Shown: one piece after another, positions 8,553 to 32,090 of the stretch
Position numbering within the stretch: the stretch's first letter is position 1
Layout of the letters: the number at the start of each line of letters is the position of its first letter
DNA from: Acidimicrobiia bacterium
Lineage (GTDB): Bacteria > Actinomycetota > Acidimicrobiia > Spongiisociales > ZC4RG35
Assembly (NCBI GenBank): GCA_029865445.1
Contig: JAOUGY010000001.1
Span: 1 to 38,864 of the forward strand
DNA: 38,864 bases
Direction of reading: 5' to 3'
The notes under the pieces: generated by a model
What the model was told of the DNA's origin: nothing
What the model saw: the letters and a program-made list of their open reading frames with translations, nothing else
Databases searched by the model: none
Position numbers and translations under genes: made by a program

Positions 8553-8647
8553 GGAGGCGACCGAGCGCCTGGTGGGCTCCGCGGTCTTCAAAACCGTTGG
8601 GGGGCCGAAACGTCCCCGGCGGGTTCGATTCCCGTCCGCCTCCGCCA
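8553..8647 (+). tRNA. selC: tRNA-Sec (anticodon UCA), CCA encoded
   Basis: GGAGGCG...CGCCTCC-G-CCA acceptor. Anticodon arm GCGGT-CUUCAAA-ACCGU. Long variable arm (GGGGGGCCGAAACGUCCCC). T-loop GGGTTCGATTCCC. 95 nt. Confidence 0.85.
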
Positions 8648-20224: not shown

Positions 20225-20272
20225 CAACCCTGGGTTGAGGAAGTGAAAATCCACACAACCAACCCTGGGTTG
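20225..20272. repeat. 48-bp direct repeat, copy A: CAACCCTGGGTTG - 22 nt - CAACCCTGGGTTG
   Basis: Matches 21273-21320 with 3 mismatches, all in the spacer. Each end is a 13-nt near-perfect palindrome. Confidence 0.95.
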
Positions 20273-20287
20273 AGCAGGCGCCGGCCT

Positions 20288-21193
20288 TCATGAGTGGGAC
20301 CCGAAGGCAGCGCGGACTGTTGCCACGACATGACCCGGCCGGTTCGCCACATCATGCCATGTGAACCGGAGCAGCTTCCACCCGTGGATCACGACGGCAT
20401 TGTCCCGTGCCCGATCCCTGTCGAACTCTTGGTTTCGCGTGTGCCAGCGCCTGCTGTCCCATTCGATTGCGACGCGCTCATCCGGGTAAGCGTCATCGAA
20501 TCGCCGCGTGCGGTCCCACGGGAGTGGGAACTCGCTCAGGAAGCGGCCGCAATCCGCCTCCAACAACAACGCCCTACCCAAGGCCTCCAACTTCGATGCG
20601 ACGTGTGGAGAGCCATCGACGAGTTCGGAGGTCACCTCTCTGAGGACCTTCGAGCCGGGTCGGCCACGGCGCGCCACCGAATCCCGAATCGCGACCAACA
20701 GGTCGAGATCGACTCGCTTGTCCAAGATCAACGACCGCAACACGTCGCTCAAGTGTGAAACGGAGCAGAAGCGAGCCATATCGACAACCGTTCGCTCGAC
20801 GGTGGTGACCCGCAGTCCGTCGCGTGTGGTGATGTGAGAGTCCGCTAGGTCATGGTTGCGCCGAACGGTGACGCCGGGAAAGGCATGCGTGGTCCGGCTG
20901 TGGACCGACACGACGGCGAGCCCCTTGGCAAATCCCTTCACGCTATGTACCTCGGCCGCCGCCTCGTGCGACGCCACTGCGCTCGGCAGCACGGCCACCG
21001 CAGCGCGGACCCTCTCCATGGGAACCGAGGCGTCGTAGAGCTGGATGGCACCCCCATCCAACCGCTTCCACTGTCCCCGACTGAGGCGCCCCCGAACCTC
21101 GTTGACCGTCATCCCCAGTTCGAGAATCTGCTTTCTGCGCAAACAGCCACCTTGAGAGGCGGCGACTTCCATCACGGCTCGTTCGATGTTCAT
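20288..21193 (-). CDS. DUF559 (Vsr-like PD-(D/E)xK endonuclease fold) protein with N-terminal AbiEi-like wHTH domain
   Basis: C-terminal RFDDAYPDERVAIEWDSRRWH...HGWKLLRFTWHDV is the DUF559 signature. The N-terminus, GGCLRRKQILELGMTVNEVRGRLSRGQWKRL, is AbiEi_4-like. ORF trimmed to the ATG at 21193. Confidence 0.8.
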   Translation of the reverse strand: MNIERAVMEVAASQGGCLRRKQILELGMTVNEVRGRLSRGQWKRLDGGAIQLYDASVPMERVRAAVAVLPSAVASHEAAAEVHSVKGFAKGLAVVSVHSRTTHAFPGVTVRRNHDLADSHITTRDGLRVTTVERTVVDMARFCSVSHLSDVLRSLILDKRVDLDLLVAIRDSVARRGRPGSKVLREVTSELVDGSPHVASKLEALGRALLLEADCGRFLSEFPLPWDRTRRFDDAYPDERVAIEWDSRRWHTRNQEFDRDRARDNAVVIHGWKLLRFTWHDVANRPGHVVATVRAAFGSHS

Positions 21194-21272
21194 GACCGAA
21201 AGATGCCAATGGAGAGTGACATTTATCCATCCCCGCCCAACCGTGGGCCAGATCGGTGGATATCCACTCAGC

Positions 21273-21320
21273 CAACCCTGGGTTGAGGAAGTGAATATCC
21301 ACGCAATCAACCCTGGGTTG
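21273..21320. repeat. 48-bp direct repeat, copy B
   Basis: See copy A. Lies 80 nt upstream of the DUF559 start and 30 nt from the serB stop. Confidence 0.95.
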
Positions 21321-21349
21321 GCGGCGCTTCGCGGCGGCGGGTTTCTTGG

Positions 21350-29170: not shown

Positions 29171-29248
29171 TGGCAGGGGTGGAGGGACTCGAACCCCCAA
29201 CCTACGGATTTGGAGTCCGTCGCTCTAACCAGTTCGAGCTACACCCCT
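29171..29248 (-). tRNA. tRNA-Trp (anticodon CCA)
   Basis: Reverse complement is AGGGGTGTAGCTC...GGACTCCAAATCC...GGTTCGAGTCCCTCCACCCCTGCCA. Cloverleaf checked by hand. Confidence 0.9.
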
Positions 29249-31770: not shown

Positions 31771-31844
31771 TAGCGGCGGGCGGACTCGAACCGCCGACCT
31801 CTCGATTATGAGTCGAGCGCTCTCACCTACTGAGCTACGCCGCC
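31771..31844 (-). tRNA. tRNA-Met (anticodon CAT; elongator-type anticodon stem, Ile2-lysidine identity not excluded)
   Basis: Reverse complement is GGCGGCGTAGCTCAGTAGGTGAGAGCGCTCGACTCATAATCGAGAGGTCGGCGGTTCGAGTCCGCCCGCCGCTA. Confidence 0.85.
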
Positions 31845-31901
31845 TCGTTGCGGAGCCATTCTGCTCCGCCATACCTCGTCATCTGTGCCACGAAGTACGC
31901 G

Positions 31902-31973
<72 letters not shown>

Positions 31974-32007
31974 GTGGATTGTGTTGACGCCGCCATGGGC
32001 GCCGTCG

Positions 32008-32090
32008 TGCCGGGAGAAGGATTTGAACCTCCGAAGGCTTGCGCCGGCAGATTTACAGTCTGCTCCCTTTGGCCGCTCGGGCATCCCGGC
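32008..32090 (-). tRNA. tRNA-Tyr (anticodon GTA), long variable arm
   Basis: Reverse complement is GCCGGGATGCCCGAGCGGCCAAAGGGAGCAGACTGTAAATCTGCCGGCGCAAGCCTTCGGAGGTTCAAATCCTTCTCCCGGCA. Confidence 0.88.

What the first reader, a model, noticed from the sequence alone, without database searches (positions are those of the whole stretch)
20225..21320. DUF559/AbiEi-like gene carried on a 1048-bp unit bracketed by 48-bp direct repeats made of a 13-bp palindrome
The same 48-bp module occurs at 20225-20272, just after gnd, and at 21273-21320, just before the serB stop. The module is CAACCCTGGGTTG - 22 nt - CAACCCTGGGTTG. The two copies differ by only 3 mismatches, all in the spacer, and the similarity stops exactly at the outer palindrome ends.

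Between the copies lies a single gene. It encodes an N-terminal AbiEi-type wHTH fused to a DUF559 (Vsr-like PD-(D/E)xK nuclease fold) domain, a family known for being multi-copy and patchy in actinobacteria. The geometry looks like attL/attR or a duplicated target. It could reflect a nuclease-gene cassette that inserted, or is mobilised, at a palindromic intergenic site in the manner of homing. Alternatively the palindrome pairs may be operator sites for its own wHTH. I am not aware of a described mobility mechanism for DUF559 genes.
Basis: partly seen in the sequence, partly recalled or inferred. Interest (0 to 1): 0.6.

Follow-up and report, generated by a model that had tools for sequence, protein, structure and literature searches.

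The report
Nuclease gene bracketed by cognate repeats
A gene for a DNA-binding nuclease sits between two copies of a short palindromic repeat that is also scattered about 20 times through this genome, and across related bacteria each version of the gene goes with its own repeat family, much like the known REP/RAYT partnership but with an unrelated enzyme.

Summary
Two 48-bp modules (CAACCCTGGGTTG-N22-CAACCCTGGGTTG, 3 spacer mismatches) bracket one gene between gnd and serB. The gene encodes an AbiEi-like DNA-binding module fused to a Vsr/DUF559-type nuclease.

The module is not private to this locus. It is a REP-like repeat with a 35-bp period, found at about 20 intergenic sites in this uncultured Acidimicrobiia genome.

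It is still tied to the gene:
- The genome has four paralogues, each bracketed by a different dispersed palindromic family.
- About 45 of 51 homologues in 41 relatives, and 67 of 72 loci from other species, are bracketed the same way.
- Repeat families track gene clades across genomes. Two predictions stated beforehand held. One genome (G030) has the repeats but no gene.
- Scattered copies share each genome's own hairpin variant with the gene-flanking copies.
- No RAYT transposase was found.

Best reading (about 0.55): a REP/RAYT-like enzyme-plus-repeat partnership that uses a different nuclease. No biochemistry supports this yet.

This scan noted the same pattern earlier on other DNA. I found no paper describing it.

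The parts
20225..20272 (.). Left (gene-distal, 3' of the gene) REP module: 13-bp palindrome A (20225-20237), a 22-nt spacer containing the GTGAAAATCCAC near-palindrome, then palindrome A again (20260-20272).
   Evidence: It is a member of dispersed family F1. As single-stranded DNA it folds into a long hairpin, -12.6 kcal/mol, z -2.2.
20288..21193 (-). Gene for a 301-aa AbiEi-like DNA-binding module fused to a Vsr/DUF559 (EDxHD-like) nuclease. The stop codon lies 15 nt from the left module.
   Evidence: ORF. Pfam, PADLOC AbiEi. AF2 model pLDDT 90.7. Foldseek matches to 6Y8Q, 3R3P and 3HRL. 274 homologues at E<=1e-10, the closest 53% identical.
20594..21193 (-). Region coding for the AbiEi-like part (residues ~1-200: N-terminal winged helix plus the AbiEi C-terminal-like domain).
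   Evidence: PADLOC AbiEi models cover residues 5-188. Foldseek match to 6Y8Q_A over 206 columns, probability 1.00.
20300..20551 (-). Region coding for the nuclease domain (residues ~215-298). Invariant residues D233, E244, D246 and H251 lie at about 20495-20497, 20462-20464, 20456-20458 and 20441-20443.
   Evidence: Invariant columns in a 40-sequence alignment. Foldseek match to the I-Bth0305I catalytic domain, TM 0.78-0.80, and to 3HRL, TM 0.74. Pfam MTES_1575/DUF559 hits over residues 238-296.
21238..21272 (.). Inner variant unit. CAACCGTGGGCCA is motif B (read in gene orientation: TGGCCCACGGTTG). It is followed by a spacer holding the perfect palindrome GTGGATATCCAC. It lies 44 nt upstream of the start codon and probably overlaps the promoter or operator.
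   Evidence: D1, 68% copy. The same B-type end unit occurs in the solo arrays on C20 and C511. Motif B (GSCCRCGGTT) occupies the same place upstream of homologues.
21273..21320 (.). Right (gene-proximal, upstream) REP module: palindrome A (21273-21285), a 22-nt spacer with GTGAATATCCAC, then palindrome A (21308-21320). It is in direct orientation relative to the left module.
   Evidence: The 95-nt array 21232-21326 folds at -25.4 kcal/mol, z -4.9.

Best explanation
The locus is the gene-carrying member of a repeat-plus-enzyme system in Acidimicrobiia.

The protein. It is a site-specific nuclease. An AbiEi-type DNA-binding module is fused to a small Vsr/EDxHD-type catalytic domain whose active-site residues are conserved.

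The cognate DNA. It is the REP-like module that brackets the gene and is scattered at about 20 other intergenic sites. The module consists of motif A (the 13-bp palindrome CAACCCWGGGTTG), a variable hairpin, and then a second A or the related motif B.

Inferred mechanism:
1. The protein, probably as a dimer, binds motif A and motif B. By analogy with I-Bth0305I, it cuts or nicks centred on the palindrome.
2. The upstream module ends 44 nt before the ATG. Binding there also represses the gene, as AbiEi does at its own promoter. This would keep the nuclease scarce.
3. Occasional cleavage at repeat copies is repaired from other copies. That keeps the family homogeneous within a genome, overwrites older repeat types and seeds new sites.
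4. The gene itself stays single-copy. It is either inherited vertically with its flanks or gained and replaced as a repeat-bracketed cassette, as at this gnd|serB junction.

Shown here: the anatomy, the protein folds, the conserved catalytic residues, the genome-wide scatter, the gene-to-repeat-type correspondence, co-occurrence across genomes, concerted evolution, and lineage-specific gain of repeat sites.

Inferred only: binding, cleavage, repression, and the causal direction from gene to repeats.
For: Within this genome:
- There are four paralogues, each bracketed by a different dispersed palindromic family: F1 with 33 exact 13-mers, F2 about 20 copies, F3 16, F4 15.
- Among 2662 crude ORFs, only 10 have flank repeats scoring >=21, and 3 of those 10 are family genes. 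The fourth family gene was missed by the ORF set but has 46-nt flanks.

In relatives:
- About 45 of 51 genes in 41 genomes are bracketed, with conserved geometry: the repeat ends 30-100 nt before the start and 0-15 nt after the stop.
- 67 of 72 loci from other species score >=14, and 61 of 72 score >=18. Mismatched left/right flank pairs reach >=18 in 13 of 354 cases.
- Repeat type follows protein clades. The CCCWGGG clade has 100/100 support, and labels need 14 changes against 27.8 when shuffled.

Co-occurrence across genomes:
- The F1 13-mer gives 33 in G000 and 0, 1, 1, 0 in the four congeners, which lack this gene.
- F3 gives 16, 6, 7, 4 copies in the four congeneric genomes with an F3-type gene, 1 in the congener without it, and 0 in 36 others.
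- F4 is found only in G000.
- A prediction stated beforehand held. TTCTGCACANTGTGCA is found only in G001, G002, G023 and G020. All four have a family gene flanked by it. The other 37 genomes have none.
- A second stated prediction held. The G029/G040 flank motif occurs 45 and 16 times there and 0 times in 39 others.

Concerted evolution: F2-type copies in five congeners carry each genome's own hairpin variant, identical to the copies flanking its syntenic gene.

Orthologous sites:
- The uppS 3' site carries each genome's own repeat type.
- The C130 and C242 F1 sites lack any such repeat in congeners.

Other points:
- No Y1/RAYT transposase was found in G000-G003 or G030, while the control genomes gave hits.
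- I-Bth0305I, the structural match, is a homodimer most specific for a 14-bp pseudopalindrome centred on its cut site (PMC3239194).
- AbiEi binds inverted repeats in its promoter (PMC7319586).
Against: - G030 (same order, 85% complete) has 29 exact copies of the 13-mer in 36-bp-period pairs, but no homologue even at E<=10. It has only an unrelated frameshifted small DUF559. So the repeat can exist without a detectable gene, or the gene sits on an unbinned short contig.
- G009 has 5 copies of the 13-mer, none flanking its gene.
- Other ordinary genes are also bracketed by F2 or F3 pairs: a PfkB-like kinase on C108, a dehydrogenase on C522 and a large ORF on C1.
- Co-occurrence among kin is not independent evidence, and most genomes are fragmented MAGs.
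- A nuclease that cuts about 30 sites in its own chromosome needs a restraint that I only infer.
- No binding, cleavage or mobility event was observed.
- An earlier check in this scan, on other DNA, reported a failed co-occurrence test for the same idea.
Confidence: 0.55

Rival explanations
1. REP-targeting selfish cassette. Some other process makes and maintains the repeats. The nuclease gene is a mobile, homing-like cassette that recognises a particular repeat family and lands between or beside its copies, so it is always found bracketed. It does not make the repeats.
For: - The gnd 3' junction is occupied by three different clade members in G000, G002 and G010. It is empty or holds other genes in other relatives, and holds a lone 13-bp palindrome in G030.
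- The window's gene has no orthologue in its own genus. Its nearest relatives are 47-53% identical and come from other families or metagenomes.
- G030 shows that repeats can exist without the gene.
- The catalytic domain's closest solved structure is a homing endonuclease.
Against: - The genes are single-copy per type. Within-genome paralogues are at most 69% identical. The one 98.7% pair lies in a larger duplicated segment.
- The F2, F3 and TTCTGCACA-type genes sit at syntenic positions across the genus, so they are inherited vertically.
- If repeats pre-existed independently, many genomes should have a family without its gene. Only 1-2 of about 19 genome-by-family instances do.
- The recognition sites stay intact on both sides, unlike classical homing.
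Confidence: 0.2
2. The protein is a host-serving or defence factor, and the repeats are its binding sites or regulon, with no mobility involved. Examples would be a one-protein AbiE-like toxin-antitoxin or abortive-infection module, a Vsr-like repair or structure-specific nuclease, or a regulator. The upstream module is simply its operator. The scattered copies would be terminators, nucleoid sites or decoy sites that co-evolve with the protein's DNA-binding specificity.
For: - The N-terminal 200 residues are AbiEi-like, and AbiEi proteins autoregulate through inverted repeats (PMC7319586).
- The gap between motif B and the start codon is conserved at about 40-55 nt.
- The repeats are strong hairpins at gene ends.
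- The core of motif A contains CCWGG, the classical Dcm/Vsr site. This follows from the sequence and was not followed up.
Against: - There is no AbiEii/DUF1814 toxin partner. The neighbours are gnd and serB.
- A second full module lies downstream of the stop codon, in both direct and inverted arrangements, which an operator does not need.
- Repeat families appear and vanish with the gene within a genus (0-1 against 33 copies), and orthologous sites switch type. That is turnover typical of mobile repeats rather than a conserved regulon.
- Tandem arrays hold 2-4 units.
Confidence: 0.15
3. Coincidence or assembly artefact. Repeats pile up around this gene only because repeat-rich intergenic DNA and MAG mis-assembly place them there.
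For: - G000 is a 539-contig MAG with 4% contamination.
- Many homologues sit on ~1-kb contigs.
Against: - The window is a 38.9-kb contig with normal gnd and serB flanks.
- The same architecture recurs in 10-contig and single-contig genomes (G002, G003, G004, G023) and in 67 of 72 independent species loci, against a mismatched-flank control.
- Only about 0.3% of other ORFs in G000 have flank repeats.
Confidence: 0.02

Closest known systems
REP/REPIN sequences with their RAYT gene (REP-associated tyrosine transposase; PMC3116915, PMC3337134, bioRxiv 10.1101/2021.07.10.451892)
   Same: - A single-copy enzyme gene is bracketed by copies of a short palindromic repeat that is scattered through intergenic DNA of the same genome.
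- One genome holds several gene/repeat-family pairs.
- The repeats form hairpins and occur as singlets, pairs and clusters.
- The gene is mostly inherited vertically.
- Repeats within a genome are homogeneous, and each genome has its own variant.
   Different: - The enzyme is unrelated. It is an AbiEi-like DNA-binding module plus a PD-(D/E)xK Vsr-type nuclease, not an HUH Y1 transposase. No PF01797 hit was found in these genomes.
- The likely chemistry differs: duplex cleavage or nicking with repair, rather than single-strand transposition.
- The host is Acidimicrobiia rather than Proteobacteria.
- Copy numbers are low (15-80 per family).
- The flanks are direct in this locus and inverted in most relatives.
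I-Bth0305I and the EDxHD (Vsr-like) homing endonucleases (PMC3239194; PDB 3R3P)
   Same: - It is the best structural match of the C-terminal domain (TM 0.78-0.80).
- It is a multidomain protein with a separate DNA-binding part.
- The known enzyme is a homodimer whose highest specificity is a 14-bp pseudopalindrome centred on the cut. That is comparable with the 13-bp palindrome here.
   Different: - This gene is not in an intron or intein.
- It does not interrupt its recognition site. Intact sites lie on both sides and at about 20 other places in the same chromosome.
- The N-terminal module is AbiEi-like.
- The motif here reads E-W-D-S-R-R-W-H rather than EDxHD.
AbiEi antitoxin of type IV AbiE toxin-antitoxin/abortive-infection systems (PMC3985639, PMC7319586; PDB 6Y8Q)
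   Same: - The N-terminal ~200 residues share sequence (PADLOC, E 1e-17) and fold with AbiEi.
- AbiEi binds pairs of inverted repeats in its own promoter. This locus has two or three palindromes just upstream of the gene.
   Different: - There is no AbiEii (DUF1814) nucleotidyltransferase partner gene.
- A nuclease domain is fused in its place.
- The repeats also lie downstream of the gene and are dispersed genome-wide.
Small stand-alone DUF559 genes framed by BoxC/PIT-type repeats
   Same: - A Vsr-fold nuclease gene lies between copies of a dispersed palindromic repeat.
- The same REP/RAYT-like reading was proposed.
   Different: - Those genes are about 100-130 aa, lack the AbiEi module, and are framed by G/C-rich BoxC-type repeats.
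- Here a 300-aa two-module protein goes with A-hairpin-B repeats.
- I did not test that system.

Membership tests
REP/REPIN-RAYT system | Single-copy gene flanked by copies of its repeat | tested here: met
   Window. All 4 paralogues. 45 of 51 relatives and 67 of 72 species loci. Within-genome paralogues are at most 69% identical.
REP/REPIN-RAYT system | The flanking repeat is a dispersed intergenic family in the same genome | tested here: met
   G000 families F1-F4. Also G001-G004, G020, G023, G029 and G040.
REP/REPIN-RAYT system | Repeat family and gene co-occur across genomes | tested here: met
   About 17 of 19 genome-by-family instances have the cognate gene, and two predictions stated beforehand held. 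Exceptions are G030 (85% complete MAG) and, weakly, G009. Kin are not independent.
REP/REPIN-RAYT system | The enzyme is an HUH Y1 (IS200/IS605 TnpA-like) transposase | tested here: not met
   The protein is AbiEi-like plus a Vsr-like nuclease. PF01797 has no hit in G000-G003 or G030, while control genomes gave hits. It is therefore not a member, only an analogue.
EDxHD/Vsr-like homing endonucleases | Vsr-like catalytic fold with conserved acidic and histidine residues | tested here: met
   Foldseek 3R3P TM 0.78-0.80 and 3HRL TM 0.74. D233, E244, D246 and H251 are invariant in 40 sequences. The exact EDxHD spacing is not reproduced.
EDxHD/Vsr-like homing endonucleases | Gene embedded in an intron or intein, or interrupting its own target site | tested here: not met
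   It is a free-standing gene between gnd and serB, with intact palindromes on both sides.
EDxHD/Vsr-like homing endonucleases | Cleaves the cognate empty site | not testable with these tools
   Needs purified protein and substrates.
AbiE type IV toxin-antitoxin system | AbiEi-fold antitoxin with an N-terminal winged helix | tested here: met
   PADLOC AbiEi, E 1e-17. Foldseek 6Y8Q, probability 1.00. Pfam AbiEi_4 is just below cut-off.
AbiE type IV toxin-antitoxin system | Adjacent AbiEii (DUF1814) nucleotidyltransferase toxin gene | tested here: not met
   The neighbours are 6-phosphogluconate dehydrogenase and phosphoserine phosphatase. The cassette holds a single ORF.
Pfam DUF559 / REase_MTES_1575 | Score at or above the curated gathering threshold | tested here: inconclusive
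   DUF559 scores 20.3 against 20.6 bits and MTES_1575 32.3 against 38.2. Database homologues carry PF18741 and some PF04480. The fold agrees.

The most novel reading that the evidence does not exclude
AbiEi-Vsr nucleases are the missing partner enzymes of a whole class of REP-like repeats in Actinomycetota. The nuclease cuts at the palindrome, and repair from sister copies drives the spread, homogenisation and type-replacement of the repeats. This would be a second, mechanistically independent invention of the REP/RAYT life-style, working on duplex DNA by break-and-copy rather than by single-strand transposition.
Probability: 0.35. Interest if true: 0.85.

Novelty: new variant of a known kind. 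Interest (0 to 1): 0.7.

Why it matters
Short palindromic repeats fill the intergenic DNA of many bacteria, but a responsible enzyme is known for only one class: REP/REPIN elements with the RAYT transposase, mainly in Proteobacteria.

This work ties a different, structurally unrelated nuclease to its own repeat family. The link rests on position, co-variation, co-occurrence and concerted evolution across a whole class of uncultured Actinomycetota.

If the link is causal:
- It explains where these repeats come from.
- It shows that enzyme-plus-repeat partnerships evolved more than once.
- It offers a family of natural nucleases with readable, rapidly diversifying specificity. The 13-bp palindrome and variable hairpin lie next to each gene, so the protein's target can be read from the genome.

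It also has practical consequences:
- It explains why these genes break metagenome assemblies, with many on ~1-kb contigs.
- It explains why DUF559 genes score as false 'programmed inversion' targets (PMC9881135).

Tried and rejected
- attL/attR or target-site duplication of a single insertion. Rejected: the module is a dispersed family, and the right array has the same A-hairpin-A-hairpin-B build as the solo arrays on C20, C511 and C257.
- CRISPR-like array. Rejected: the 'spacers' are conserved, the repeat is 13 bp, and arrays hold 1-4 units.
- Known RNA family. No Rfam hit at gathering score anywhere in the repeats.
- Sigma-70 promoter in the upstream module. The consensus scan found none, which is uninformative for this phylum.
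- Recent cassette transposition in G003 (two copies 98.7% identical). Rejected: the whole 2.1-kb fetched region is 98.5% identical, so it is a larger duplication or assembly redundancy.
- G030's cognate gene. Protein search at E<=10 and the DUF559 and AbiEi_4 profiles found only an unrelated, frameshifted small DUF559 and a weak AbiEi_4 fragment.
- Single-sequence AlphaFold model. It was unusable at pLDDT 43.7 and was replaced by the alignment-based model.
- Classifying repeat sites as convergent, tandem or divergent with my crude ORF set. It was unreliable in this high-GC genome and I do not use it.
- PDB sequence search gave nothing. Only the fold search did.
Full report
**1. What is in the window**

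- The left module lies at 20225-20272, 27 bp after the gnd stop: CAACCCTGGGTTG-N22-CAACCCTGGGTTG.
- A second copy with three spacer mismatches lies at 21273-21320, 29 bp before the serB stop.
- One ORF lies between them on the minus strand (20288-21193, 301 aa).
- The 13-mer is far above chance in the window: 8 strand matches against 1.0 expected, and 0 of 100 shuffles reach 8.
- The right side has a third, variant unit (21238-21272), so it is a short tandem array with a 35-bp period.
- The 22-nt spacer carries its own near-palindrome, GTGRAWWTCCAC.

**2. The protein**

Pfam gives three hits just under threshold: MTES_1575, AbiEi_4 and DUF559. PADLOC AbiEi models match residues 5-188 at E 1e-17.

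A single-sequence fold failed. With a 40-sequence alignment the model reaches pLDDT 90.7. In the Foldseek search:
- The N-terminal ~200 residues match the AbiEi antitoxin 6Y8Q.
- The C-terminal ~100 residues match the catalytic domain of the homing endonuclease I-Bth0305I (3R3P, TM 0.78-0.80).
- The C-terminal part also matches the DUF559 protein NGO0050 (3HRL).

D233, E244, D246 and H251 are invariant, so the nuclease looks active.

The neighbours are ordinary genes, gnd and serB. There is no AbiEii toxin gene.

In a 5.8-billion-protein collection the nearest relative is only 53% identical. Named relatives are from Acidimicrobiia MAGs and are annotated as 'AbiEi family antitoxin domain-containing protein' or 'very-short-patch-repair endonuclease'.

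**3. The module is a dispersed repeat**

The window's genome (G000) is a MAG of 3.98 Mb in 539 contigs, 89% complete. It holds 33 exact copies of the 13-mer, against 0 for the reversed control. They are arranged in about 20 intergenic arrays of 1-4 units at a 35-bp period, in both orientations.

Several arrays end in the same variant unit (CAACCGYGGGCCA) as the window's right array. The array on C257 ends in TGGCCCGCGGTT.

The general build is therefore (A-hairpin)n-B. A is the 13-bp palindrome and B is a related motif, GSCCRCGGTT.

When the two A copies have A and T at their centres, the 48-nt module folds as one long perfect hairpin: -24.6 kcal/mol, z -7.9.

**4. The repeat is nevertheless tied to the gene**

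tblastn finds three paralogues in G000, on C402, C101 and C21, at 25-41% identity. Each is bracketed by its own pair of palindromic repeats, and each of those is a separate dispersed family:
- F2: AACCCTGGGTW + GACTTCGCTGAGCGAAGTC + GCCCGCGGA, about 20 copies.
- F3: AAATTGCGTA...TACGCAATTT, 16 copies.
- F4: ACGCACGAAAGGCAGCA..., 15 copies.

F3 and F4 occur on the same contigs.

As a control I ran the same flank test on 2662 crude ORFs. Only 10 have flank repeats scoring >=21, and three of those are family genes. The fourth family gene was absent from the ORF set but has 46-nt flanks. A few ordinary genes are also bracketed: a PfkB-like kinase, a dehydrogenase and a large ORF.

**5. Relatives**

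In 41 genomes of the order, 32 carry 1-7 family genes. About 45 of 51 genes examined are bracketed. The geometry is conserved: the repeat ends 30-100 nt before the start codon and 0-15 nt after the stop.

In the species-representative collection, 343 stretches encode relatives, nearly all from Acidimicrobiia MAGs.

| Flank-repeat score | Real loci (72 with enough flank) | Mismatched left/right flanks (354) |
|---|---|---|
| >=14 | 67 | 79 |
| >=18 | 61 | 13 |

Among the 67 positive loci, 58 are inverted and 9 direct, and 60 contain CCCWGGG. The window's direct arrangement is thus the minority form.

The commonest form is A-hairpin-B | gene | B'-hairpin-A'. A and B are conserved and the hairpin differs in every genome. 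The nearest metagenomic homologue shows exactly this, and its contig ends inside the repeat.

Many homologues sit on ~1.0-1.1-kb contigs. That is what repeat-bracketed genes do to short-read assemblies.

**6. Co-variation**

A maximum-likelihood tree of the 51 proteins shows that flank type follows protein clade.
- A 100/100 clade of 20 proteins from at least six taxonomic families includes the window's gene and C402. All have CCCWGGG-core flanks.
- Separate, well-supported clades have TGCACANTGTGCA and ATTGCGTA flanks, and most ACCTnAGG-flanked genes also cluster.
- Labels need 14 changes against 27.8 when shuffled. The usual caveat applies that kin share labels.

Protein identities in the CCCWGGG clade fall to about 40% while the non-coding core is kept. 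This argues that the flanks are functional and are recognised by the protein.

**7. Co-occurrence across genomes**

| Repeat motif | Genomes with copies | Genomes without |
|---|---|---|
| F1 13-mer | G000 33 | congeners G001-G004: 0, 1, 1, 0 (none has an orthologue of the window's gene; best 38-42%) |
| F3 | 16, 6, 7, 4 in the four congeneric genomes with an F3-type gene | 1 in the congener without the gene; 0 in 36 others |
| F4 | G000 15 | 0 in 40 others |
| TTCTGCACANTGTGCA | G001 78, G002 19, G020 20, G023 5 | 0 in the other 37 |
| G029/G040 flank motif | G029 45, G040 16 | 0 in 39 others |

Before running I noted a prediction in the notebook. The motif TTCTGCACANTGTGCA flanks a gene clade in G001, G002 and G023, so it should be abundant there and absent from G000, G003 and G004. 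The result matched. The unpredicted G020 also turned out to have family genes flanked by this motif.

A second stated prediction concerned the flank motif of G029 and G040, the window gene's nearest relatives in this set. It also held.

The clear exception is G030. It belongs to another family and is an 85% complete MAG. It has 29 exact 13-mers, arranged as A-hairpin-A with a different hairpin, including one lone A between gnd and serB. No homologue is detectable. The gene could be on an unbinned short contig, but I cannot show that. G009 has 5 copies that do not flank its gene.

**8. Concerted evolution, inheritance and turnover**

The F2-type gene is syntenic in all five congeners, as are the F3- and TTCTGCACA-type genes where present. 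So these genes are vertically inherited, single-copy residents. Within-genome paralogues are at most 69% identical. The one 98.7% pair lies in a larger duplication.

All five genomes have 9-22 F2-type copies. In each genome the scattered copies carry the same genome-specific hairpin as the copies flanking the gene:
- G000: GACWYCGCTSAGCGAAGTC.
- G001 and G002: GACCACACCNCGTGTAGTC.
- G003 and G004: GKCCGCCANNNTGGCGGAC.

Comparison of orthologous sites gives two further results.
- At the uppS 3' site, G000 has an F1 array, G002 has its own type, G003 and G004 have their F2 type, and G001 has a degenerate remnant. A site can switch type.
- At two other F1 sites (C130, C242) the congeners have no such repeat. 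Those are lineage-specific gains.

No Y1/RAYT transposase exists in these genomes.

**9. The gnd|serB junction**

The convergent gnd/serB pair is ancestral in the order. The junction differs between genomes:

| Genome(s) | Content of the junction |
|---|---|
| G013, G006 | Nearly empty (37-39 bp) |
| G012 | Nearly empty (152 bp) |
| G030 | One lone palindrome |
| G001 | 384 bp of other repeats |
| G014, G007, G005 | Unrelated genes |
| G000, G002 | A family gene; G010 carries one beside gnd without serB |

The three family genes (G000, G002, G010) belong to three different sub-clades and have different flanks. So the gene-plus-flanks unit has been gained or replaced here more than once.

**10. 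Mechanism**

The closest solved relative of the catalytic domain, I-Bth0305I, is a multidomain homodimer. It footprints about 60 bp and is most specific for a 14-bp pseudopalindrome centred on its cut (PMC3239194). AbiEi proteins bind pairs of inverted repeats in their own promoters (PMC7319586).

Putting these together with the anatomy gives the most economical model.
1. A dimer reads motif A (and B) and cuts or nicks there.
2. The upstream module doubles as an operator that keeps the enzyme scarce.
3. Breaks at repeat copies are repaired from sister copies. This gives homogenisation, type replacement and occasional new copies.

Every step from binding onward is inference.

**11. Comparison with what is known**

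Functionally this resembles REP/REPIN-RAYT (PMC3116915, PMC3337134). It fails the defining enzyme criterion, so it is an analogue and not a member. It is not an AbiE toxin-antitoxin pair because there is no toxin gene. It is not a classical homing endonuclease gene because there is no intron or intein and its sites stay intact.

I found no paper linking DUF559 or AbiEi-nuclease genes to dispersed repeats. The nearest item in print is one table row listing 'DUF559 domain-containing protein' as enriched among predicted programmed-inversion targets (PMC9881135). The inverted flanks explain that row.

This scan has noted the same REP/RAYT-like reading before on other genomes. One earlier check reported a failed co-occurrence test there. 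In this clade the co-occurrence tests succeed, with one orphan.

**12. Limits**

- Most genomes are fragmented MAGs.
- Kin are not independent.
- Absence in a MAG is weak evidence.
- No expression, binding, cleavage or mobility data exist.

My best reading is a nuclease-repeat partnership, with confidence about 0.55.

Noticed in passing
window 20231 / 20266 / 21279 / 21314 (centres of the four 13-mers): The core of motif A is CCWGG, the classical Dcm methylation / Vsr mismatch-repair site, and the nuclease domain is Vsr-like. In many solo modules the two palindromes have A and T at the centre, which makes the 48-nt module one perfect hairpin. The window's four copies all have T.
   Followed up: partly
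G000 contigs C108:12072-12999, C522:117-1298, C1:16507-18808, C532:1062-1996: Ordinary genes are also bracketed by pairs of F3 or F2 repeats about 0.9-2.2 kb apart. They are a PfkB-like sugar kinase, a zinc-type dehydrogenase, a 719-aa ORF and a small SRPBCC-like ORF.
   Followed up: partly
G000 genome-wide: There are several further abundant repeat families with no DUF559 partner in the assembly, for example CCCTCGCTTCGCTCGGGC, CCCCGCTGGGGGAGGA, GGGAGGTAGGGGGA and CGTTGAGAAGCCCC. There are also long 7-bp tandem repeats, (GTCACCA)n and (AGCAACA)n. Earlier notes on this genome describe a 248-nt nested palindrome targeted by IS110 elements.
   Followed up: no
L062 (G001 gnd-serB spacer, 384 bp): The congener's junction holds (CAGAACG)n heptamer runs and three copies of ACCGGCGGGGGGTCGAAGGGGGGTCGTCCCCCCTGGGCAT-like elements. 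This is yet another repeat class at the same site.
   Followed up: no
L145 / L144 (G003, G004 uppS locus): In G003 and G004 the undecaprenyl-diphosphate-synthase-like ORF runs on for about 110 codons into a chorismate-mutase-like tail before the F2-type repeat. In G000-G002 it stops earlier.
   Followed up: no
L126 (G030:C10:264532-264832): A small stand-alone DUF559 gene in G030 is split by a frameshift and lies next to a CCCCTCCTGAAGGGAGGGG hairpin. It is unrelated to the F1-like repeats of that genome.
   Followed up: partly
table: Dozens of homologues are the only gene on contigs of 1.0-1.2 kb. This is the size of the gene plus half a repeat on each side, which suggests that flanking repeats routinely break assemblies and that these genes are under-represented in binned MAGs.
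   Followed up: no
window 8553-8643: A tRNA-Sec gene (75.6 bits). tRNA genes also lie at 29174-29248 and in a cluster at 31771-32090.
   Followed up: no
L083 (G002 gnd region): In G002 the gene next to the junction matches gnd in two pieces, 69% over the C-terminal third and 38% over the rest. This suggests a mosaic or replaced gnd beside its own DUF559 cassette. The cassette's flanking repeats contain the gnd and serB stop codons.
   Followed up: no
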